A stretch of DNA of 8,237 bases from a virus. The position numbers were made by a program, and so were the translations under genes. The stretch lies in UHGV virus genome UHGV-0217139; one strand, written 5' to 3'. How positions within the stretch are numbered: the stretch's first letter is position 1; each line of letters opens with the position of its first letter. Positions 1 to 8,237 of this stretch are shown here, one piece after another. The notes beneath the pieces were generated by a model. It was not told the DNA's origin, ran no database searches, and saw only the letters and a program-made list of their open reading frames with translations.

Positions 1-126
1 GGCATAACCTGAATCTGAGGCAGCACCTGGCACGGCTGGGACGGAAGTCGCTGTCGTTTTCAAAATCGGTGGAGCTGCATGACAAAGTCATCGGGCATTA
101 TCTGAACATAAAACACTATCAATAAG

Positions 127-615
127 TTGGAGTCATTACCGGAAATCTCAACATTTTCAACTGTAAGAAACTTGTCCCATAGTCCACATAAGCATGTCCT
201 CCCTTTTGGTTTTGTTCAATCTCCAATACTTGCAACCCTCTGCTTAGATAAAAGTTATTTTGGTAGCTTACTACGCCGATTGAACAAACATCATGATCTC
301 AAGCTAAGTGTGTTTATGGATGATGTGATCATCTCGTCAAACGATTTGGCCCAATTACAAGCGGCTTACGACGAAGCACTAGTGGCAATGCGCAAATCTG
401 GTTATCAAGCCAACATGAGTAAAACTCAGGCACCATCGTCAAAGATTAGCGTGTTTAATTTAACTTTGAGTAAGGGAGTTATGAAAGTCACATCTCAGAA
501 AATGAGTGACTTCCTGATTGATTTCTATTCAAGCAATTATGAGCCGCACAGAATAGGGGTCAAAAACTACGTCGAAGCTGTTAATCCAGGGCAAGCGAAA
601 CTCTTTAAGTTGTAA
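127..615 (+). CDS. Reverse-transcriptase-like palm-domain fragment (motifs B to E only), N-terminally truncated; possibly a pseudogene
   Basis: Translation contains LPFGFVQSPILATL (RT motif B-like, LPQG...SP.L), then ~20 aa later SVFMDDVIIS (motif C, YxDD-like with FMDD), then KSGYQANMSKTQ and FNLTLSKG (motif D/E-like G..N..KT and FLG). No motif A is present; the frame is closed by stops at 103-105 and 109-111 and the first possible start is TTG at 127 with no convincing RBS. Composition is visibly AT-richer than the P4 core. Confidence 0.5.
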   Translation: MESLPEISTFSTVRNLSHSPHKHVLPFGFVQSPILATLCLDKSYFGSLLRRLNKHHDLKLSVFMDDVIISSNDLAQLQAAYDEALVAMRKSGYQANMSKTQAPSSKISVFNLTLSKGVMKVTSQKMSDFLIDFYSSNYEPHRIGVKNYVEAVNPGQAKLFKL

Positions 616-880
616 TTGCGATCGCATGTAGTAGCAACTGGGCTTGACTGAATGCCTGCCGCCATTTTGCCGCCACTACCAAAGAAAAAAGGGCTACGCT
701 TTCACGTAACCCCTTGATTTATTTGGGGGCTGGCGGAGTTTGAATAAATAATGTATTGCTTTGATTTTTAATGATTTTGTTTAATTCAGTTTTTGTGCGT
801 ATACCTAATCGTATACCAATGGCTGTAAGTTAATGTGAAATGAAAGCGCATTTTTACTTGGATTGATGCTATATCGTACA

Positions 881-1187
881 GGAAAAAAATTTTTTTTCGA
901 AAGAACTGTTCACACTGTTCACCTTTCTTTTTTCTCCTTTTATTTCAGAGTGATAGGTGGTGAATAATGGGTGAAGGGTGAACATTCGATTCTTCACCTC
1001 CGGCATTCTGCCGGTGTGACTCATACCGGTGATTAATCCCCCATACTGAAATCACACAGGGAGAAAAAAAAGTTTTTTTTGATTTGATTGTTCACACTGT
1101 TCACCTTTCGTTTTTCTCTTTTAATTTCAGTGTGATAACGGGTGAATATACGGTGAAGGGTGAACAGTGGATTGTTCACCTTCGGGG
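881..1187. repeat. crr: P4-type cis replication region (crr): two ~125-bp direct repeats (881-1003 and 1061-1187) with type I iteron octamers
   Basis: The two units are highly similar and start 180 bp apart. Each begins with an A/T tract (A7T8 / A8GT8) and carries TGTTCACAC-TGTTCACC (907-923; 1089-1105), inverted GGTGAA-type copies (956-983; 1140-1166) and a further TTCTTCACC/TGTTCACC (990-998; 1173-1180). As I recall, P4 crr is two 120-bp repeats separated by 60 bp that bind alpha protein via TGTTCACC iterons. Position just 3' of alpha fits. Confidence 0.75.
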
Positions 1188-1195
1188 GATGTCGG

Positions 1196-1223
1196 GATAA
1201 AAAAAGACCGGCAGATGCCGGTC
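1196..1223 (-). terminator. Rho-independent terminator of the alpha operon
   Basis: Inverted repeat GACCGGCA/TGCCGGTC at 1206-1223 (GC-rich stem, short loop) followed on the minus strand by a run of 7 U (plus-strand A run 1199-1205), 8 nt downstream of the alpha stop codon. Confidence 0.7.
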
Positions 1224-1230
1224 AGGTGGG

Positions 1231-3564
1231 TCAGGCTGTTGTAGGGTCGTCACATTTTGGCAGCCAGTCGCCGTAGCTTTCCTCTTTCAGCGTCAGGTTG
1301 GTCTGTATCCCCTGTTTGGTATGGCGCTTCTCGTAATTCAGCCCGTATTCCTTCAGCATCACCGGCAGCCCCAGCCCGAACATTTTCAGACTGAGTACAT
1401 TCCGGTAGCCGTTTGCCTCCATGTAGGCCAGATAGGCGTGATAGAGGTATTTACGGTAATTACGCGGGATGATACTGGCGTTCCCCATATACATGCCGCT
1501 GGTCTGCGGCAGGGTTTCCAGATAGCCGATAAAATCAAACGTCGGGTCGGCATCCCGTTTGATGTTCAGCGCCTCGTCTGAGTTCTGCTGGGACTGAAGC
1601 AGTGACCGGGCGAGCATCGGGTCGCTGAACTTCTGCATCAGGTGACGCACGATGACCGCCAGCTCGCGGGTGATTTTGTCCTTAAGCTGCGGGTCGCGCT
1701 CCTGCGGGGCTATCTGTTCCGGGAAGTGAATAATCACCCGCCGGCGTGACACGCCGCCGCTGCGGTCGGTGAAGCGCATCGGGTTATTGTTCACGGCCAG
1801 AATCACCGCCGGGATATGCGTGGAGTACGCATCCCGGTATTTCGGATCCACGGACACCGCATCGCCGCCGGTGATGGCCTTGAGTCCGGCACCGTCGCCG
1901 CTCCATTTTTCCTGGTCCGGCAGGCGTATCAGTGAGAAGCCAGTTAACGCGGCACGTTCACGCGGGGATTCCAGCGTCTCAATGGTGGCCGACGTGGCGT
2001 TATCCTCCCCGGCCAGCAGGGTGGCTATTTCGGCCATGATACTTTTGCCGCTGCCGCCGGGACCGGTCACCTCCAGAAAGAGCTGCCAGTCGTAGCGGTT
2101 TGCCAGCACCATAAACAGTGCGGCCAGAATCACGTCGCGTTTTTCCGCACGGCCACCGGCGGCACGGTCAAGCCAGCGCCAGAACGCGGGGGCGTGGGTT
2201 TCCAGCGTTTCCCCTTCCACCGGCGGGGTGAAATCCACATCGCACAGGGTACGCATCCAGTGTGACGGACTGTGCGGGTGGAACGTGCCGTTCTGCGTGT
2301 CGAGCACGCCGTTACGAAAGCCAATCAGGCAGCGGGAGGGGGCTTCCTGCTGCGGAATAATCAGCTTCAGGGTGTCCACCACGGAGGCCACCTTCCCGGA
2401 GGAGAACGGCGCGCGCAGCCGCTGAAACAGCCCGGCCACATCCCGGGCAAAGTCCTGTGGTGGCAGCACCTTCCAGACACCATTTTCATAACGGGACAGA
2501 AGCTGGCCGTTGGCATCGACCGCGAGCGCCTCGCCGTAATGCTCATAGATACGCATGGCCTTTTCGCTGGTACTCATGGCGGAAAACTCCGCTTCGCTCA
2601 TGGTGTCGAACGGGCTTTCAGCCGGTGGCCGGATGGCATCATAAATGGCCTTACGGGTGGCTTCCCCGCCGTACTGCGTGAAGGCATCATTCCAGTCACC
2701 GAAGACCGGCGGCAGGGCAACAACACCTTCACACGCATCTGCGGCTGCGGCGGCTTTTTTCTGGCCGTCACCGCTGAGGTCACGGTCAGCAGCAAGGACT
2801 ATCTGACAGGCCGGATGCTTCTGCCGGGCAAGGCTGGCCAGAGAAAGGAGGTTCACGGAAGAAAGCGCCACCATCACCGTTTCACCGGTCAGGTGATGTA
2901 CGGTAAGTGCGGTCGCGTATCCCTCCGCTATCCACAGACGTTTTCCGGCCTGATTCTGTCCTTCAAGGATGTGACAGGTGCCCCTGACCTGTCCGCCTTT
3001 CAGGGTGCGCTTACGGCCGTCAGCACTGATTAACTGAAGGTTAACCAGTGCGCCGCTGTCGTCATACAGTGGCACCACAAGGTCACCGGCGCGCCAGCTC
3101 ACGCCACCGGCTCTGTGTGTGCCGGTCAGCATCCGGCATTCCCGGCCGGGAAAGCCCTTGCGGGTCAGGTAGGCGTTACCGGTTCCGGGACGGGTTTTTG
3201 CCATCAGGGTTTGTGCCAGTGCGGCGGCGTTCTTCCGGGCAGCGTCTGTTTCAGCAACGGCGGCGGCCGTCACTGCCGGGTCAGCCGGGGGCAGACTGCC
3301 GGTCACGGCAGCCACCTTTGCGGCCGCGTCGGACGGGGAGACACCAAACACCTTTTCAACCAGTTTCAGGCCGTCACCGGCACCACACTGATTGCAGTAC
3401 CAGGTGCCGCGCCCCTCCCTGTCATCAAAACGGAAGCGGTCACTCCCGCCACAGACCGGACAGGGCTGATGACGGTTCTTCAGCACCTGAATCCCCAGCG
3501 CCGGGAGAATACGCGGCCAGTGGCCGAGCGCATGGCTGACGGTGGCGGTTACGTTCATTTTCAT
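1231..3564 (-). CDS. alpha: P4 alpha-type bifunctional DNA primase / helicase (replication initiator)
   Basis: 777-aa ORF. N-terminal zinc-binding primase motif CPVCGGSDRFRFDD...WYCNQCG and Walker A GPGGSGKS in the C-terminal half. RBS AAGGAGA 8 nt upstream of ATG. Length equals P4 alpha as I recall it (777 aa). Followed by crr iterons. Confidence 0.9.
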   Translation of the reverse strand: MKMNVTATVSHALGHWPRILPALGIQVLKNRHQPCPVCGGSDRFRFDDREGRGTWYCNQCGAGDGLKLVEKVFGVSPSDAAAKVAAVTGSLPPADPAVTAAAVAETDAARKNAAALAQTLMAKTRPGTGNAYLTRKGFPGRECRMLTGTHRAGGVSWRAGDLVVPLYDDSGALVNLQLISADGRKRTLKGGQVRGTCHILEGQNQAGKRLWIAEGYATALTVHHLTGETVMVALSSVNLLSLASLARQKHPACQIVLAADRDLSGDGQKKAAAAADACEGVVALPPVFGDWNDAFTQYGGEATRKAIYDAIRPPAESPFDTMSEAEFSAMSTSEKAMRIYEHYGEALAVDANGQLLSRYENGVWKVLPPQDFARDVAGLFQRLRAPFSSGKVASVVDTLKLIIPQQEAPSRCLIGFRNGVLDTQNGTFHPHSPSHWMRTLCDVDFTPPVEGETLETHAPAFWRWLDRAAGGRAEKRDVILAALFMVLANRYDWQLFLEVTGPGGSGKSIMAEIATLLAGEDNATSATIETLESPRERAALTGFSLIRLPDQEKWSGDGAGLKAITGGDAVSVDPKYRDAYSTHIPAVILAVNNNPMRFTDRSGGVSRRRVIIHFPEQIAPQERDPQLKDKITRELAVIVRHLMQKFSDPMLARSLLQSQQNSDEALNIKRDADPTFDFIGYLETLPQTSGMYMGNASIIPRNYRKYLYHAYLAYMEANGYRNVLSLKMFGLGLPVMLKEYGLNYEKRHTKQGIQTNLTLKEESYGDWLPKCDDPTTA

Positions 3565-3578
3565 GGTGTTGTTCTCCT

Positions 3579-3899
3579 TCAGTGCAGTACCGGCGCTTTT
3601 ATGTGACGGGCACAGAGTTCATCCATCACAACCAGCCCGAGAAAGGACAGCGACGGCGCGGCCTTCAGGGGGCCGGATTCCATTAAATCTTCCAGCAGGG
3701 CACAGGCTATCTGACGCCCTTTTTCCTCACCGTGCTGGCGCAGATAAAAGCCCTCCAGCTCAGCGGCGATGGCCGCCTCCAGTGATTCAAGGGTGAGATG
3801 CGGGTAGCGGTGCTGACGTTCGCACACGGTCAGCCAGGCACAGGCGACAGCACGACGGTAAAGGGCTGCGCGTAAGACGGGCGGTAAGGGTGTTTTCAT
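3579..3899 (-). CDS. P4 orf106-like small protein of the left operon (function unknown)
   Basis: 106-aa ORF directly upstream of alpha on the same strand; RBS GGGAGGA 6 nt before ATG; stop 15 nt before alpha start. Length and position match P4 orf106 as recalled. Confidence 0.6.
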
Positions 3900-4034
3900 T
3901 TGCTTTCCTCCCTGTGACAGATGACTGCATTCCGTGCCGGTTGCATTAACTGATAAGGCATATCTGCGTCTCCTGAAGACGTGCGTATCCCTGCGCGAAT
4001 ACGCACATTTAATTTTTCGGGTGTCGTTTTTTAA

Positions 4035-4490
4035 TTACAGATAATTGCGGTAACTGTTATCCGGGGTGATTTCCGGGTCAGGCTCCGTGCGGGGAATTTC
4101 CCGCCATTCCCGCGCCACCGGTGCCGCCCGGCTGACCGGAACAGGGTCCTGCGGGTAAATATCCAGATATTTCTCCCGCCATTTCTGTAATTCCGGGTCT
4201 CCGGCCATTTCTTTCAGTACCGCATGCCGGTTTACGGGGCTGCGTTTAAACAGGTCAGGACGGTCACAGGTAAATTCCCGCAGAAAACGCCCCAGCGGGA
4301 TGTCTGTGGTGCGCCCGTCGGCGAGGATACGCACAAGGATACTGAATTTACGGCGGTACGGGTTCCAGACAATGTCCGGGCAGCGGTACGGCATTTCCCA
4401 CGGAATACCGTCTTCCAGAATGCCGACCACGGCCACATCGGGAAAACCGGCAGAACGGTAAATCTCACCGGGCTGGGGAAAATCAAACAT
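4035..4490 (-). CDS. P4 orf151-like protein (function unknown)
   Basis: 151-aa ORF; its ATG overlaps the epsilon stop by 8 nt (operon coupling). Length and position match P4 orf151 as recalled. Confidence 0.6.
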   Translation of the reverse strand: MFDFPQPGEIYRSAGFPDVAVVGILEDGIPWEMPYRCPDIVWNPYRRKFSILVRILADGRTTDIPLGRFLREFTCDRPDLFKRSPVNRHAVLKEMAGDPELQKWREKYLDIYPQDPVPVSRAAPVAREWREIPRTEPDPEITPDNSYRNYL

Positions 4491-4770
4491 GCGTCCTGTC
4501 TCCCCGGTCTTTCTGCTGGGCGAGAAAATCGCGGCACAGGCCTTTGGCTTTCAGCTCATTCAGCACAAAATCAATATCTTCATTCAGGTAGCTGAAAATA
4601 TGCGGAATGTAGAGCTGATGCAGGCCGGAGAGTTCACGGTGAATCAAATCACCCCCAACAAACTGGGATACGGCGCTGGCGCGGTTGAGCTTATGGTAAG
4701 CCTCAATGCTGAGGTGTTCACAGGCGTCATGACGCGCTGAGACGGTCTGAGGGGCTTTTTTATTACGCAC
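4483..4770 (-). CDS. epsilon: P4 epsilon-like protein (helper-prophage derepression), GTG start
   Basis: The track gives a 175-aa ORF, but the in-frame GTG at 4770 has a GGAGG RBS 6 nt upstream and yields exactly 95 aa, the size I recall for P4 epsilon. The upstream in-frame part overlaps kil/eta in another frame. Confidence 0.55.
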
Positions 4771-4960
4771 GGGACACCTCCACCACCGGCAGACGGGCAG
4801 CAAGGGAGAGCACATAGTCACGGACAAAGGAACGGCGGGCACTGCGTTCATCACCGGCGACGGTGCGAAGCATACAGATACGGGGATGACGGTCTGCGCG
4901 ACGGACAGCCGCAAACACAAAGACAAATTCAGGGTGTGAGGGGGTAAGGGTTGTAGCCAT
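4763..4960 (-). CDS. kil: P4 kil-like 65-aa protein (C-terminal in-frame part of eta)
   Basis: ATG at 4960 preceded by a strong RBS AAGGAGG (7-nt spacer); 65 codons to stop at 4763-4765; overlaps the epsilon start by 8 nt. P4 kil is described as a 65-aa product forming the terminal part of the eta ORF. Confidence 0.6.
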
Positions 4961-5338
4961 AAGGCAGCCTCCTTCGAGTAGCAAATAACTGCTATCGCCG
5001 GAGTTCTCACGCTCGATGGCGATAGCCCAGACGGGGGTGAGAATACCGGCCTCGAAGAATACCGGCCAGCCCGGAGGCTGCCCCGCCTGAGCTACCATTG
5101 ACTCAGTGGCATAACATGCGATTGCGAACAGGATCATACCTGCACGGCAAACCACACGCCACACCATAATCTGGCGCTCTGTGGCGTTGATTGCGACACA
5201 AAAAAAGACGCATGGCGCGTCATATGTCGCCTTCGAGTTACACGGGTTCTCACGCCCGGCTGCCGATTTTGCGGCAACGGAAAGACTATATCCGCAAATG
5301 CCGGTCTGAGGATGAGTCTCCTGTGTCAGGGCTGGCAC
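4763..5338 (-). CDS. eta: P4 eta-like ORF (long form containing kil in frame)
   Basis: 191-aa ORF in the same frame as and ending at the same stop as kil; P4 eta is recalled as ~197-199 aa, starting upstream of the early promoter. The start codon is uncertain. Confidence 0.4.
4990..5300 (-). promoter_or_regulatory. P4-type immunity / early-left leader region (candidate P_LE, seqA/seqB/seqC-like motifs, CI RNA locus); boundaries unresolved
   Basis: Exact 10-mer GTTCTCACGC occurs twice (5003-5012 and 5246-5255), with a partly complementary GGGGGTGAGAATACCGG at 5033-5049. Hairpin GCTATCGCC(4991-4999)/GGCGATAGC(5018-5026) encloses the first copy in its loop. An 11-bp direct repeat GAATACCGGCC lies at 5041-5051 and 5057-5067. 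A -10-like TATAGT sits on the minus strand at 5285-5290. The pattern fits the P4 CI-RNA antisense immunity arrangement, but I cannot place the RNA ends. Confidence 0.35.
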
Positions 5339-5339
5339 A
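5322..5339 (+). promoter_or_regulatory. Delta/Ogr-type activator site (TGT-N12-ACA) at about -55 of the sid late promoter
   Basis: TGTgtcagggctggcACA; the dyad centre is ~82 bp upstream of the sid ATG, consistent with a transcription start near 5385 and a ~27-nt leader. P2/P4 late promoters carry TGT-N12-ACA centred near -55. Confidence 0.55.
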
Positions 5340-5359
5340 TCTGCAATGCGTCGTGTTGT

Positions 5360-5377
5360 TGTCCGGTGTACGTCACA
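5360..5377 (+). promoter_or_regulatory. Second TGT-N12-ACA dyad, ~38 bp downstream of the first (possible promoter-proximal Delta site)
   Basis: TGTccggtgtacgtcACA; centre ~17 bp upstream of the start predicted from the first dyad. I recall P4 Psid having a second Delta site near -18, but this is from memory. Confidence 0.4.
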
Positions 5378-5411
5378 ATTTTCTTAACCTGAAGTGACGA
5401 GGAGCCGGAAA

Positions 5412-6146
5412 ATGTCTGACAACACCATCCCTGAATATCTGCAACCCGCACTGGCACAACTGGAAAAGGCCAGAGCCGCCCACCTTGAGAACGCCCGACT
5501 GATGGATGAGACCGTCACGGCCATTGAACGGGCAGAGCAGGAAAAAAATGCGCTGGCGCAGGCCGACGGAAATGACGCTGATGACTGGCGCACAGCCTTT
5601 CGTGCAGCCGGTGGTGTCCTGAGCGACGAGCTGAAACAGCGCCACATTGAGCGCGTGGCACGCCGGGAGCTGGTACAGGAATATGACAATCTGGCCGTGG
5701 TGCTGAATTTTGAACGTGAACGCCTGAAAGGGGCGTGTGACAGCACGGCCACCGCCTACCGGAAGGCACATCATCACCTTCTGAGTCTGTATGCAGAGCA
5801 TGAGCTGGAACACGCCCTGAATGAAACCTGTGAGGCGCTTGTCCGGGCAATGCATCTGAGCATTCTGGTACAGGAAAATCCGCTCGCCAACACCACCGGC
5901 CATCAGGGCTACGTCGCACCCGATAAGGCTGTCATGCAGCAGGTGAAATCATCGCTGGAACAGAAAATTAAACAGATGCAAATCAGCCTCAGCGGCGAGC
6001 CGGTTCTCCGGCTGACCGGACTGTCAGCGGCAACACTTCCGCACATGGATTATGAGGTGGCAGGCACACCGGCACAGCGCAAGGTGTGGCAGGACAAAAT
6101 AGACCAGCAGGGAGCAGAGCTTAAGGCCAGAGGACTGCTGTCATGA
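5412..6146 (+). CDS. sid: P4 Sid external scaffold (capsid size determination) protein
   Basis: 244 aa from ATG 5412 with RBS GAGGAG upstream (the track ORF begins at an upstream GTG, giving 250 aa). N-terminus MSDNTIPEYLQPALAQLEKARAAHLENARLMDETV matches P4 Sid as recalled; coiled-coil-like composition; stop overlaps the delta start (ATGA). Confidence 0.85.
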   Translation: MSDNTIPEYLQPALAQLEKARAAHLENARLMDETVTAIERAEQEKNALAQADGNDADDWRTAFRAAGGVLSDELKQRHIERVARRELVQEYDNLAVVLNFERERLKGACDSTATAYRKAHHHLLSLYAEHELEHALNETCEALVRAMHLSILVQENPLANTTGHQGYVAPDKAVMQQVKSSLEQKIKQMQISLSGEPVLRLTGLSAATLPHMDYEVAGTPAQRKVWQDKIDQQGAELKARGLLS

Positions 6147-6643
6147 TTTACTGCCCGTCGTGTGGACATGTTGCTCACACCCGCCGCGCACATTTCATGG
6201 ACGATGGCACCAAGATAATGATTGCACAGTGCCGGAATATTTATTGCTCTGCGACATTTGAAGCGAGTGAAAGCTTTTTCTCTGACAGTAAAGATTCAGG
6301 AATGGAATACATTTCAGGCAAACAGAGATACCGCGATTCACTGACGTCAGCCTCCGGCAGTATGAAACGCCCGAAAAGAATGCTTGTTACCGGATATTGT
6401 TGTCGGAGATGTAAAGGCCTTGCACTGTCAAGAACATCGCGGCGTCTGTCTCAGGAAGTCACCGAGCGTTTTTATGTGTGCACGGATCCGGGCTGTGGTC
6501 TGGTGTTTAAAACGCTTCAGACCATCAACCGCTTCATTGTCCGCCCGGTCACACCGGACGAACTGGCAGAACGCCTGCATGAAAAACAGGAACTGCCGCC
6601 AGTACGGTTAAAAACACAATCATATTCGCTGCGTCTGGAATGA
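6143..6643 (+). CDS. delta: P4 Delta late-gene transcriptional activator (tandem Ogr-like zinc finger)
   Basis: 166 aa; two Cys4 zinc-finger modules (CPSCGH...CRNIYC and CRRCKG...CTDPGCG); translationally coupled to sid; same length as P4 delta as recalled. Confidence 0.85.
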   Translation: MIYCPSCGHVAHTRRAHFMDDGTKIMIAQCRNIYCSATFEASESFFSDSKDSGMEYISGKQRYRDSLTSASGSMKRPKRMLVTGYCCRRCKGLALSRTSRRLSQEVTERFYVCTDPGCGLVFKTLQTINRFIVRPVTPDELAERLHEKQELPPVRLKTQSYSLRLE

Positions 6644-6716
6644 GGGCTGCCGGTTAACACCGGCCGTCGCCGCACACCGTATTTTTATTCTTCAGCATGA
6701 TGAGAAAGAGATAACG

Positions 6717-7289
6717 ATGGAAAGCACAGCCTTACAGCAGGCCTTTGACACCTGTCAGAATAACAAAGCAGCATGGCTGCAACGCAAAAATGAGCTGGCA
6801 GCGGCCGAACAGGAATACCTGCGGCTTCTGTCAGGAGAAGGCAGAAACGTCAGTCGCCTGGACGAATTACGCAATATTATCGAAGTCAGAAAATGGCAGG
6901 TGAATCAGGCCGCCGGTCGTTATATTCGTTCGCATGAAGCCGTTCAGCACATCAGCATCCGCGACCGGCTGAATGATTTTATGCAGCAGCACGGCACAGT
7001 ACTGGCGGCCGCACTGGCACCGGAGCTGATGGGCTACAGTGAACTGACGGCCATTGCCCGAAACTGTGCCATACAGCGTGCCACAGATGCCCTGCGTGAA
7101 GCCCTTCTGTCCTGGCTTGCGAAGGGGGAAAAAATTAATTATTCCGCACAGGATAGCGACATTTTAACGACCATCGGATTCAGGCCTGACGCGGCTTCGG
7201 TGGATGACTGCCGTGAAAAATTCACCCCTGCGCAGAACATGATTTTTTCGCGTAAAAGTGCGCAACTGGCATCACGTCAGTCTGTGTAA
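6717..7289 (+). CDS. psu: P4 Psu polarity-suppression (Rho antagonist) / capsid decoration protein
   Basis: 190 aa; RBS AAGAG 6 nt upstream; last gene of the sid-delta-psu operon and directly followed by cos, as in P4; length matches P4 Psu as recalled. Confidence 0.85.
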   Translation: MESTALQQAFDTCQNNKAAWLQRKNELAAAEQEYLRLLSGEGRNVSRLDELRNIIEVRKWQVNQAAGRYIRSHEAVQHISIRDRLNDFMQQHGTVLAAALAPELMGYSELTAIARNCAIQRATDALREALLSWLAKGEKINYSAQDSDILTTIGFRPDAASVDDCREKFTPAQNMIFSRKSAQLASRQSV

Positions 7290-7453
7290 AATTCCCCGAA
7301 AACCCGCTTGTTTTTACTGAAAAAAGCCATGCATCGATAAGGTGCATGACTTTGCATGCGTTTTCCCGCCCCATTATCAACAAAACACGCCATTCCCGGC
7401 GCGGCCTGAGCGTGTCAGTGCAACTGCATTAAAACCGCCCTGCAAAGCGGGCG

Positions 7454-7472
7454 GGCGAGGCGGGGAAAGCAC
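7454..7472. other. cos: cos site: 19-nt P2/P4-type cohesive-end sequence
   Basis: Exact GGCGAGGCGGGGAAAGCAC, the 19-nt 5' cohesive end sequence of P2 and P4 as I recall it, located ~165 bp downstream of psu where P4 cos lies. Confidence 0.75.
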
Positions 7473-7780
7473 TGCGCGCAAATGTTGATGTGTTCAATTT
7501 TTTCAAAGTCTGAGAGCGCAATTGAGTTTGCTCGCTTCATCTACGACAATAAGTTAGAGTAGTGATTAGAAAGGGGAATGTTTAATATTATTGAGTTAAA
7601 GTTATTTTTGTGTTTTTGGATGACTCTATTGATGTGTTTATGATAGTGTTATTTTTACGGAGTGGATGGAGGATTAATTTCATTTAATGCATTAACATAA
7701 TGCATGTGTTTTAATGTGGCTGTTAAATATTGTGGCGGTTTTTTAGGCTATAAAAACATTTGTGTGCTTCTTATTTTTTT

Positions 7781-8237
7781 TTATTTATATTTTTGTGGGG
7801 TAATTTCAACATATGAAGAAGCGAACCATTCTACAGGTTTTTTGTTTTTCAATTCTTCTGTGTCAAAATTATCATCTGGTGTTGACCTAAATGTAATATA
7901 ATAAACGCCTGGCTTATTTAATCCAACAATATAGCTAAGGGTTTTTTCTGCTCCTATTAAAACATGTGTCTTTGATAATGATTTACTTTTTGATTCTGGA
8001 TAGTGTTTTTTATCTCTCAAAGATGTATAGAGATTTGGTGTAAAAGATTGAGATTGTTCAACTTTATCGCCATTTGCGCTTACTTTGTACACAGTTAAAG
8101 CTCCTTTGGATGTGTCAAAGGATAATGGTCGTTTGCCGTTATTTTTTATGGTTACATTAATAATCATTCCTAGCTGTGTTTTTAACGGGATAACATTAAT
8201 AGCAATACTGCTAGAGTCAGTGCCCTTAATTTGCTCT
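7781..8237 (-). CDS. 3' part of a cargo gene of unknown function in the post-cos variable region; 5' end lies beyond the window
   Basis: The minus-strand frame stays open from the window edge (8236) to the TAA at 7781-7783, giving 152 codons; the M at 8167 in the ORF track is internal. Very AT-rich codon usage unlike the P4 core. Sequence (…VYYITFRSTPDDNFDTEELKNKKPVEWFASSYVEITPQKYK) matches no family I recognise. Confidence 0.55.
   Translation of the reverse strand, partial: EQIKGTDSSSIAINVIPLKTQLGMIINVTIKNNGKRPLSFDTSKGALTVYKVSANGDKVEQSQSFTPNLYTSLRDKKHYPESKSKSLSKTHVLIGAEKTLSYIVGLNKPGVYYITFRSTPDDNFDTEELKNKKPVEWFASSYVEITPQKYK

What the first reader, a model, noticed from the sequence alone, without database searches (positions are those of the whole stretch)
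4990..5260. Repeated GTTCTCACGC motif and a hairpin in the leader region: signature of P4-style RNA immunity
The exact 10-mer occurs at 5003-5012 and 5246-5255 on the plus strand (both transcribed as GCGUGAGAAC from the minus strand), and a partly complementary GGTGAGAA-containing segment lies between them at 5033-5049. The first copy sits in the 18-nt loop of a 9-bp hairpin (4991-4999 / 5018-5026). In P4, immunity is mediated by the small CI RNA, whose seqB pairs with seqA and seqC on the nascent transcript to cause termination before kil. The motif layout here is compatible, but which copies are seqA, B or C and where CI RNA ends cannot be decided from sequence alone.
Basis: partly seen in the sequence, partly recalled or inferred. 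Interest (0 to 1): 0.45.

Follow-up and report, generated by a model that had tools for sequence, protein, structure and literature searches.

The report
P4-type antisense RNA immunity locus
This is the well-known small-RNA "immunity" switch of satellite phage P4, sitting in a P4-like prophage of E. coli; the RNA gene and its target sites are intact, but a 751-base deletion has removed half of the promoter that normally drives it, so it is an ordinary, already understood element that may be silent in this copy.

Summary
The window is a P4-like prophage integrated at ssrA. It is 97.5% identical to P4 and comes from E. coli assembly GCA_005280595.1.

All parts are on the minus strand:
- 5255-5246: seqA, in the loop of a small hairpin.
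- 5221-5200: terminator t1.
- 5096-5018: the cI gene for CI RNA (Rfam C4, 74 bits). seqB is at 5043-5037.
- 4960-4763: kil (65 aa).

Sixteen distinct P4-like E. coli loci show three-way compensatory covariation of seqA, seqB and seqC. The same holds for a second module: the CI hairpin-2 loop (5058-5051) pairs with 5237-5230 and with 4978-4971, which abuts the kil ribosome-binding site. This resembles the two-part a'/b' recognition of P1/P7 C4 RNA.

The 10-mer repeat alone is not statistically remarkable. Homology and covariation are what make it real.

One twist: a 751-bp deletion between two CCGGCA repeats removes the PLE -35 box, the eta start codon, vis, PLL and ori. I found the junction only in the source assembly. 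The circuit is therefore probably weakly expressed or silent here.

Novelty: already known.

The parts
5285..5290 (-). Surviving -10 box (TATAGT) of promoter PLE. The -35 box is missing.
   Evidence: In P4 the scan calls TTGCCT-18 nt-TATAGT at 8728-8699. In the window the same -10 is kept, but the best -35 candidate matches only 3 of 6 and no promoter is called.
5299..5304 (.). Deletion junction: a single copy of CCGGCA (TGCCGG on the + strand). P4 and 99.6%-identical prophages have two copies 751 bp apart. The missing DNA carries the PLE -35, the eta start codon, vis (ORF88), PLL and ori.
   Evidence: alignment A2 with P4 and E. coli S1-INA-02-B. The junction is absent from 5,426 complete E. 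coli genomes, from GTDB representatives and from metagenome contigs. It is present in the source contig SZVK01000058.1.
5259..5278 (-). First leader hairpin (GUUGCCG-CAAAAU-CGGCAGC).
   Evidence: Paired in the Rfam isrK and c4-a1b1 alignments and in the minimum-energy folds.
5243..5258 (-). seqA hairpin: a CGGG/CCCG stem presenting seqA (10-mer 5255-5246; core GUGAGAA 5253-5247) in its loop. This is the upstream target of seqB.
   Evidence: seqA-seqB pairs in 100% of cells, and 6 of 7 pairs show changes on both sides, across 16 distinct loci.
5230..5237 (-). Upstream target (CUCGAAGG) of the CI hairpin-2 loop; second recognition module.
   Evidence: Direct repeat D4, table. 8 pairs, 100% paired, 6 with changes on both sides.
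5200..5221 (-). Intrinsic terminator t1 (GACGCG-CCA-UGCGUC followed by U7), between seqA and cI.
   Evidence: Terminator scan, the same site in P4, and the 3' hairpin of the Rfam isrK model.
5018..5096 (-). cI gene: mature CI RNA of about 79 nt. Closing stem 5097-5081 / 5036-5020; hairpin 1 at 5080-5067 with a UCCG tetraloop; hairpin 2 at 5066-5045; 3' GCCA tail.
   Evidence: Rfam C4 RF01695, 74.3 bits against a gathering score of 45. Folds at -48.2 kcal/mol, z = -4.7, into the cloverleaf-like shape. The closing stem is paired in 100% of cells with 3 compensatory pairs. The ends are placed by mapping window 5096 to P4 8501 and 5018 to P4 8423; the P4 end coordinates are from my memory of Forti et al. 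1995, not read here.
5051..5058 (-). Loop of CI hairpin 2 (UCUUCGAG): antisense module complementary to 5237-5230 and to 4978-4971.
5037..5043 (-). seqB core (UUCUCAC), single-stranded between hairpin 2 and the closing stem; complementary to seqA and seqC.
   Evidence: Cognate duplexes average about -33 kcal/mol against -22 for non-cognate ones.
4991..5026 (-). seqC hairpin: 9-bp stem (5026-5018 / 4999-4991) presenting seqC (10-mer 5012-5003; core 5010-5004) in its 18-nt loop. Its 5' arm is shared with the 3' strand of the CI closing stem. It is a candidate for terminator t4 of P4; that assignment is an inference.
   Evidence: I6; -18.6 kcal/mol. 99.3% of cells paired and 3 of 9 pairs compensatory. 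seqC-seqB: 7 pairs, 100% paired, 6 compensatory.
4971..4978 (-). Downstream target (CUCGAAGG) of the CI hairpin-2 loop. Its last two G are the first two G of the kil Shine-Dalgarno sequence GGAGG (4972-4968).
   Evidence: D4; 8 pairs, 100% paired, 6 compensatory.
4763..4960 (-). kil, 65 codons: first translated gene downstream of the immunity region. It is nested in frame in the eta reading frame, whose own start codon has been deleted.
   Evidence: RefSeq annotates the ORF covering it in relatives as 'host cell division inhibitor Icd-like protein'. The long ORF matches Pfam Phage_ASH.

Best explanation
The region is the immunity locus of a P4-like satellite prophage, orthologous to P4 coordinates about 8390-8718.

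How it works in P4 (established knowledge from Deho, Ghisotti, Forti, Sabbattini and Briani 1992-2002, as summarised in PMC4825925 and PMC3632133):
- Leftward transcription from the constitutive promoter PLE runs through an untranslated leader.
- The cI segment of that transcript is cut out, by RNase P at the 5' end, to give a stable RNA of about 79 nt called CI RNA.
- CI RNA pairs through seqB with seqA upstream and seqC downstream on nascent transcripts.
- This pairing causes premature termination, so kil and the replication genes (epsilon, alpha) stay off in the lysogen.

What is shown here: all RNA-level parts are present and intact. These are the seqA hairpin, terminator t1, a cloverleaf-like CI RNA with seqB exposed, the seqC hairpin and kil with its ribosome-binding site. 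Recognition is two-part. seqB pairs with seqA and seqC. The loop of CI hairpin 2 pairs with a second site next to each target. The downstream copy of that second site abuts the kil Shine-Dalgarno sequence.

What is inferred:
- CI binding at seqC and the second site blocks kil translation and so exposes the transcript to termination, as C4 RNA does at icd in P1.
- The seqC hairpin is P4's atypical terminator t4.
- In this particular prophage the circuit is weakly expressed or silent. A 751-bp deletion has replaced the PLE -35 box and removed PLL, vis, ori and the eta start codon. The same deletion removes the drive for kil, so losing immunity would be harmless.

The confidence given (0.9) is for the identity of the locus and its P4-type mechanism. 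That this particular copy is weakly expressed or silent I hold at about 0.6.
For: - Homology and synteny with P4 at 97.6%.
- Three Rfam families above gathering score in the expected order and strand: c4-a1b1 50.3 against 46.7, isrK 67 against 50, C4 74.3 against 45.
- Terminator t1 is found in the window and at the homologous P4 site.
- CI RNA folds into the expected shape, z = -4.7.
- Among 16 distinct P4-like loci, every cell of seqA-seqB, seqC-seqB and both loop-target helices is a standard pair. 6 of 7 and 6 of 8 pairs show changes on both sides, 0 of 500 shuffles reach the observed covariation score, and structures slid by 1-3 columns pair in only 29-47% of cells.
- Cognate CI-target duplexes average -33 kcal/mol against -22 for non-cognate ones.
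- kil is a 65-codon ORF with a GGAGG ribosome-binding site directly after the second target.
- Promoter loss: P4's PLE is called as TTGCCT-18 nt-TATAGT. The window keeps TATAGT but its best -35 candidate is 3 of 6, and no promoter is called in 4700-5500.
Against: - No expression data, so production, processing and activity of CI RNA in this strain are untested.
- A -10-only promoter or read-through transcription could still give some CI RNA.
- The P4 coordinates for the CI RNA ends, and the identity of t4, come from memory of papers I could not open (PMC176756 is not held).
- Simple folding gives no clear antiterminator that would explain how CI enhances t1. The t1 hairpin forms with probability 0.83 unblocked and 0.97 with seqA and its neighbouring site blocked.
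- The covariation set is E. coli only, and the helices were first defined on the window sequence.
Confidence: 0.9

Rival explanations
1. The locus is fully active in this prophage despite the deletion. The remaining -10 box, or transcription entering from upstream, makes enough CI RNA to confer immunity against superinfecting P4-like satellites that carry the same target alleles. On this view the RNA parts have been retained as a trans-acting exclusion device.
For: Every RNA element downstream of the junction is identical or nearly identical to those of undeleted relatives: 100% over window 4955-5295 with E. coli Ec42, and identical across the immunity region to strain S1-INA-02-B in the three-way alignment. 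The -10 TATAGT is a 5-of-6 match to consensus.
Against: The -35 is 1-3 of 6 at any spacing from 15 to 19, there is no TG extension, and no promoter is called. The genes upstream on this strand side (sid, delta, psu) run the opposite way. Sequence identity is also what a recent deletion would give, with no selection needed.
Confidence: 0.3
2. The repeated 10-mer and the hairpin are chance, or reflect protein-coding constraint of the eta/ash reading frame that spans the region. No RNA function is involved.
For: A 10-mer repeat is unremarkable in 8.2 kb. A long ORF matching Pfam Phage_ASH covers the region.
Against: The three sites change together so as to keep Watson-Crick pairing, in two independent modules, with 0 of 500 shuffles reaching the observed score. 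Pairing is also kept in a relative where RefSeq marks the ash ORF as an incomplete pseudogene (strain CU42ET). Rfam covariance models score above threshold.
Confidence: 0.01
3. The 751-bp deletion is an assembly or sequencing artefact. The real prophage has an intact PLE, vis, PLL and ori, and so has a normal P4-type immunity circuit.
For: The junction is seen only in one draft assembly contig, reported for 2 samples. It is absent from 5,426 complete E. coli genomes and from the other collections searched.
Against: The junction is a clean join at a 6-bp direct repeat, which is typical of a real slippage or illegitimate-recombination deletion. Six bases is far shorter than the overlaps assemblers use (my inference). 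The flanks are otherwise co-linear with relatives.
Confidence: 0.07

Closest known systems
Immunity region of satellite phage P4 (PLE leader with seqA and t1, cI/CI RNA with seqB, seqC, kil/eta); NC_001609 about 8390-8730
   Same: Orthologous DNA, 97.6% identical over the left operon. Same order and strand of seqA, t1, cI, seqC and kil. Identical seqA, seqB and seqC cores (GUGAGAA / UUCUCAC). Identical CI closing stem and hairpin 1.
   Different: The CI hairpin-2 loop and its two targets carry another allele: UCUUCGAG / CUCGAAGG here against CCUGUGAA / UUCACAGG in P4. There is a 9-nt indel between t1 and cI. The PLE -35, eta start, vis, PLL and ori are deleted.
c4 antisense RNA system of phages P1 and P7 (C4 RNA with a' and b', targets a1 b1 and a2 b2, then icd and ant); Rfam RF01695, RF03163, clan CL00128
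   Same: The same covariance models hit. Two-part antisense recognition with one target pair upstream and one downstream of the RNA gene. The downstream target sits at the ribosome-binding site of an Icd-like small toxic protein. RNase P processing of both RNAs is reported (PMC5499578).
   Different: No ant antirepressor follows; the downstream genes are the P4 genes kil, epsilon and alpha. I did not verify which P4 module corresponds to a and which to b. Only about 80% identity to the P1-like plasmid copies, and only over the CI part.
IsrK sRNA of the Salmonella Gifsy-1 prophage (Rfam RF01394)
   Same: The leader from hairpin 1 through seqA to t1 (5278-5201) scores 67 bits against a gathering score of 50. 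PMC4825925 states that P4 seqA RNA is a structural homologue of IsrK, and PMC3632133 says the same.
   Different: The context is a P4-like satellite, not a lambdoid prophage. The orf45-anrP targets of IsrK are not present here; I did not search for them specifically.

Membership tests
P4 immunity region | Sequence homology and synteny with P4 between epsilon and PLE | tested here: met
   Window 884-5304 aligns to P4 4291-8718 at 97.6%; alignments A1 and A2.
P4 immunity region | cI gene encoding a cloverleaf-like CI RNA of about 79 nt | tested here: met
   Rfam C4 74.3 bits against 45. Fold -48.2 kcal/mol, z = -4.7. Closing stem 100% paired with compensatory changes.
P4 immunity region | seqB inside CI complementary to seqA (upstream) and seqC (downstream) | tested here: met
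   Both helices of 7 bp are 100% paired across 16 distinct loci, and 6 of 7 pairs have changes on both sides.
P4 immunity region | Intrinsic terminator t1 between PLE/seqA and cI | tested here: met
   GACGCGCCAUGCGUC followed by U7 at 5221-5200; the same site is found in P4.
P4 immunity region | kil (65 aa) as the first translated gene after the leader | tested here: met
   ATG at 4960, stop at 4763, 65 codons, GGAGG 8 nt upstream.
P4 immunity region | Constitutive promoter PLE (-35 TTGCCT, -10 TATAGT) driving the leader | tested here: not met
   The -10 is kept (5290-5285), but the -35 is replaced by Psid-side sequence. The best -35 candidate is 3 of 6 and no promoter is called, whereas the scan does call P4's PLE.
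P4 immunity region | Upstream PLL promoter, vis, and an eta start that allows immunity-insensitive read-through | tested here: not met
   All lie in the 751 bp missing from the window; vis is absent from the source contig's gene list.
P4 immunity region | Stable processed small RNA in vivo and a superinfection-immunity phenotype | not testable with these tools
   Needs a northern blot or RNA-seq, and phage crosses.
P1/P7 c4-type antisense system (Rfam clan CL00128) | Match to the C4 and c4-a1b1 covariance models | tested here: met
   74.3 against 45 bits and 50.3 against 46.7 bits.
P1/P7 c4-type antisense system (Rfam clan CL00128) | Two separate antisense segments, each matched in an upstream and a downstream target | tested here: met
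   The hairpin-2 loop module and the seqB module covary independently with both targets. There are 14 allele combinations among 18 loci.
P1/P7 c4-type antisense system (Rfam clan CL00128) | Downstream icd-ant operon (antirepressor) | tested here: not met
   The downstream genes are kil, epsilon, orf151, orf106 and alpha. RefSeq labels kil/eta as Icd-like, but there is no ant gene.
IsrK (RF01394) | Covariance-model match of the leader plus terminator | tested here: met
   67 against 50 bits at 5278-5201(-).
IsrK (RF01394) | Gifsy-type context with orf45-anrP regulated in trans | not tested
   The context here is P4-like. No search for anrP was made.

The most novel reading that the evidence does not exclude
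P4-like satellites of E. coli may carry a combinatorial, two-module RNA 'immunity code'. The first module is the CI hairpin-2 loop, with at least 8 alleles. The second is seqB, with at least 4 alleles. Each allele is matched at three places: in CI, in the upstream target and in the downstream target. The two modules have been reassorted by recombination, giving 14 combinations among only 18 loci sampled. This could set satellite-versus-satellite exclusion groups. The window carries one such combination (UCUUCGAG with UUCUCAC), which differs from P4 in the loop module only. The pattern itself is solid. What is uncertain is whether the loop module and the reassortment have already been described for P4, since I could not open the P4 papers, and whether one-module mismatches really give heteroimmunity. 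The probability given is for the pattern being both functionally meaningful and not yet described.
Probability: 0.3. Interest if true: 0.45.

Novelty: already known. Interest (0 to 1): 0.2.

Why it matters
The finding is mainly an annotation result.

It has modest wider value in three ways:
- It shows that the ORF that RefSeq's annotation labels 'Icd-like' and Pfam calls 'Ash' over this region is really an RNA-level regulatory locus.
- It gives clean comparative evidence that the hairpin presenting seqC, and a second loop-target module next to the kil ribosome-binding site, are under selection for pairing.
- It documents a natural deletion that removes both left-operon promoters together with ori. 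That is a plausible route by which P4-like satellites decay into harmless remnants.

Tried and rejected
- **Junction searches to find the source.** The 33-mer found nothing in genome or metagenome contigs. The 18-mer gave only chance hits in unrelated phyla. The fusion ORF 4763-5338 is not on record. The source was found instead through the exact alpha protein.
- **Antiterminator hypothesis for t1.** I tested whether CI binding to seqA and its neighbouring site frees the t1 hairpin. The hairpin already forms with probability 0.83 unblocked and 0.97 blocked, so folding gives no clear switch. I dropped this as a claim.
- **CI hairpin 1 as a translational blocker of kil.** GGCAGCCUCC in hairpin 1 is 10 of 10 complementary to the kil ribosome-binding region GGAGGCUGCC (I4). 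Pairing potential is kept in 159 of 160 cells, but only through C-to-U wobble changes, with no compensatory change and no excess over shuffles. Hairpin 1 is also a stable UNCG-type tetraloop hairpin. The result is inconclusive and I do not claim it.
- **Whole-leader minimum-energy fold.** It pairs seqA with seqB in cis. I treat this as showing complementarity only, not a structure.
- **Primary P4 papers.** Sabbattini et al. 1995 (PMC176756) is not held, so the P4 coordinates for the CI RNA ends and the t4 assignment rest on memory.
- **Chance or coding-constraint explanation.** Rejected on the covariation evidence.

Full report
**What the window is.** BLAST against phage records hits satellite phage P4. 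Window 884-5304 aligns to P4 4291-8718 at 97.6%, window 5299-7453 aligns to P4 9470-11624 at 98.2%, and 7454-7482 aligns to P4 1-29 across the joined cos ends. The gene order matches P4: alpha 1231-3564(-), orf106, orf151, epsilon, the immunity region, then sid, delta and psu on the + strand. The closest complete genome, E. coli S1-INA-02-B, is 99.6% identical and carries the element as a prophage at ssrA next to ypjA. An exact-protein look-up with the alpha protein found the source contig, SZVK01000058.1 of assembly GCA_005280595.1, with the same gene order.

**Checking the observation.** The exact 10-mer is at 5003-5012 and 5246-5255, and nowhere else even with one mismatch allowed. The segment between them contains GTGAGAA, which is complementary to the TTCTCAC core of both copies. 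The 9-bp perfect inverted repeat 4991-4999 / 5018-5026 with an 18-nt loop is real (I6). The repeat by itself is not significant. With one mismatch allowed, 22 of 200 shuffles give at least two matches, and 103 different 10-mers recur in the window. The case therefore rests on homology and comparative evidence, not on the repeat.

**What it is.** Rfam gives three hits above gathering score, all on the minus strand and in the order expected for a P4/P1-type antisense system:
- c4-a1b1 at 5291-5239;
- isrK at 5278-5201, which is the leader with seqA and its terminator;
- C4 at 5102-5015, which is CI RNA.

Two papers state that IsrK and C4 are the structural homologues of what the P4 literature calls seqA and CI RNA (PMC3632133; PMC4825925). 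PMC4825925 also states that CI RNA pairs with seqA upstream and seqC downstream to cause termination. Alignment to P4 and coordinate mapping assign the parts:

| Part | Window coordinates (minus strand) | Note |
|---|---|---|
| PLE -10 box | 5290-5285 | TATAGT |
| Leader hairpin | 5278-5259 | |
| seqA | 5255-5246 | in the loop of the CGGG/CCCG hairpin 5258-5243 |
| Terminator t1 | 5221-5200 | |
| CI RNA | about 5096-5018 | window 5096 = P4 8501, 5018 = P4 8423; the P4 ends are recalled, not read here |
| seqB core | 5043-5037 | |
| seqC | 5012-5003 | |
| kil | 4960-4763 | 65 codons, GGAGG at 4972-4968 |

The 79-80-nt CI RNA folds into a 16-17-bp closing stem plus two hairpins. seqB is left single-stranded and the RNA ends in a 3' GCCA tail (-48.2 kcal/mol, z = -4.7). 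That shape fits its reported processing by RNase P (PMC5499578).

**Comparative test.** A distant BLAST of 4955-5295 against 5,426 complete E. coli genomes finds the locus in 2,654 of them, at identities from 100% down to about 70%. P1-like plasmids also match, over the CI part only. I fetched 16 spread-out examples and aligned them with the window and P4. The table shows that seqA, seqB and seqC always change together, with four alleles:
- GUGAGAA / UUCUCAC
- GUAGGAA / UUCCUAC
- GUGGAAA / UUUCCAC
- UUGGCGU / ACGCCAA

The loop of CI hairpin 2 (5058-5051, UCUUCGAG) is complementary to CUCGAAGG at 5237-5230, just after seqA, and again at 4978-4971, directly abutting the kil Shine-Dalgarno sequence. 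All three sites change together and there are at least 8 alleles. P4 itself has CCUGUGAA / UUCACAGG.

I counted pairs on a gapless composite alignment of 16 distinct sequences:

| Helix | Pairs | Cells paired | Pairs changed on both sides |
|---|---|---|---|
| seqA-seqB | 7 | 100% | 6 |
| seqC-seqB | 7 | 100% | 6 |
| Loop with upstream target | 8 | 100% | 6 |
| Loop with downstream target | 8 | 100% | 6 |
| CI closing stem | 17 | 100% | 3 |

No shuffle out of 500 reaches the observed covariation score. Structures slid by 1-3 columns pair in only 29-47% of cells. Cognate CI-target duplexes average -33 kcal/mol against -22 for non-cognate ones, and combinations that share one module fall in between. 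This excludes chance and excludes coding constraint of the overlapping eta/ash frame. Pairing is even kept in a relative whose ash ORF RefSeq marks as an incomplete pseudogene. The two modules are reassorted, with 14 combinations among 18 loci.

Its 5' arm (5026-5018) is the last part of the 3' strand of the CI closing stem plus GCC. The same nucleotides can therefore either close the CI cloverleaf or form the hairpin that presents seqC in its loop. Both alternatives are supported by compensatory changes. As I recall it, P4's main lysogenic terminator t4 lies between cI and the Rho-dependent site timm and is not a canonical intrinsic terminator (abstract of Briani et al. 2000, cited in PMC4825925). 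This hairpin is the obvious candidate, but that is an inference.

**How it most likely works.**
- Shown here: the parts, their complementarity and their selection for pairing.
- From the literature: CI RNA is processed from the PLE transcript and acts in trans on nascent PLE transcripts, enhancing termination at t1 through seqA and further downstream through seqC.
- Inferred: binding of the CI loop to 4978-4971 occludes the kil ribosome-binding site, as C4 does at icd in P1. Untranslated kil RNA would then be open to Rho.
- A simple antiterminator model for t1 is not supported by folding.

**The twist in this copy.** Both P4 and the 99.6%-identical prophage have 751 bp that the window lacks. 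In them CCGGCA occurs twice, 751 bp apart; the window has one copy, at 5299-5304. The missing DNA holds the PLE -35 box, the eta start codon, vis (ORF88), PLL and the ori repeats. P4's PLE is called by the promoter scan as TTGCCT-18 nt-TATAGT. In the window only TATAGT remains, the best -35 candidate is 3 of 6, and no promoter is called. The junction is absent from all 5,426 complete E. coli genomes, from GTDB species representatives and from metagenome contigs. It is present in the source contig. This prophage can therefore neither replicate nor, probably, transcribe its left operon normally. The immunity RNA gene is intact in sequence but is likely weakly expressed or silent. Because kil depends on the same promoter, losing immunity would carry no cost.

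**Comparison with known systems and verdict.** In sequence and anatomy this is a member of the P4 immunity family, and it works like the P1/P7 c4 system. It fails one defining feature, the PLE promoter, and it lacks the PLL/vis/eta antitermination branch, because of the deletion. Nothing here is a new kind of element, so I rate it already known and of low interest. The reassorted two-module specificity pattern is the only aspect that might be under-described. I could not check the primary P4 papers to find out.

Noticed in passing
window 5299-5304 (junction); equivalent to P4 8719-9469: A 751-bp deletion between two CCGGCA repeats removes the PLE -35 box, the eta start codon, vis, PLL and the replication origin. 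I found the junction only in the source assembly (GCA_005280595.1), not in 5,426 complete E. coli genomes, GTDB representatives or metagenome contigs.
   Followed up: yes
window 5051-5058, 5230-5237, 4971-4978; loci L043-L058: A second antisense module: the CI hairpin-2 loop and two targets, the downstream one abutting the kil ribosome-binding site. It covaries at all three sites and is reassorted with the seqB module, giving 14 combinations in 18 E. coli loci.
   Followed up: yes
window 5073-5082 and 4963-4972: CI hairpin 1 (GGCAGCCUCC, with an anti-Shine-Dalgarno-like CCUCC) is 10 of 10 complementary to the kil ribosome-binding region GGAGGCUGCC. Pairing potential is kept in 159 of 160 cells, but only through wobble-compatible changes, so there is no covariation evidence either way.
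   Followed up: partly
window 4961-5102 (-): In an unprocessed read-through transcript, the predicted minimum-energy fold (-70.4 kcal/mol, z = -4.4) pairs the CI antisense segments in cis with seqC and the second target, and buries the kil ribosome-binding site. This may mean self-repression in cis, or it may just reflect the complementarity.
   Followed up: no
window 1-880: Positions 141-744 match a reverse-transcriptase-domain ORF fragment (127-615, Pfam RVT_1) plus a partial ssrA copy, which is the prophage attR end. Some part of the first 880 bases, most likely the first ~140 at the contig end, belongs to an element repeated tens of thousands of times across E. coli genomes and plasmids (72,782 places).
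   Followed up: partly
window 882-1185: Two diverged copies (about 82%) of the P4 crr 120-bp direct repeat, with TGTTCACC-type iterons. crr is kept although the matching ori has been deleted.
   Followed up: no
window 7483-8237: Beyond cos, the P4 non-essential region (gop, beta, cII) is replaced by different cargo: part of a 217-aa hypothetical protein, followed in the source contig by a DUF8426 protein. Full-length matches occur in only 2 of 5,426 complete E. coli genomes.
   Followed up: partly
window 5015-5102; E. coli plasmids (hits H86-H103): The CI RNA part matches about 900 places on E. coli plasmids at about 80% identity, under genes annotated 'ash family protein'. These are presumably the c4 genes of P1-like plasmid prophages.
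   Followed up: no
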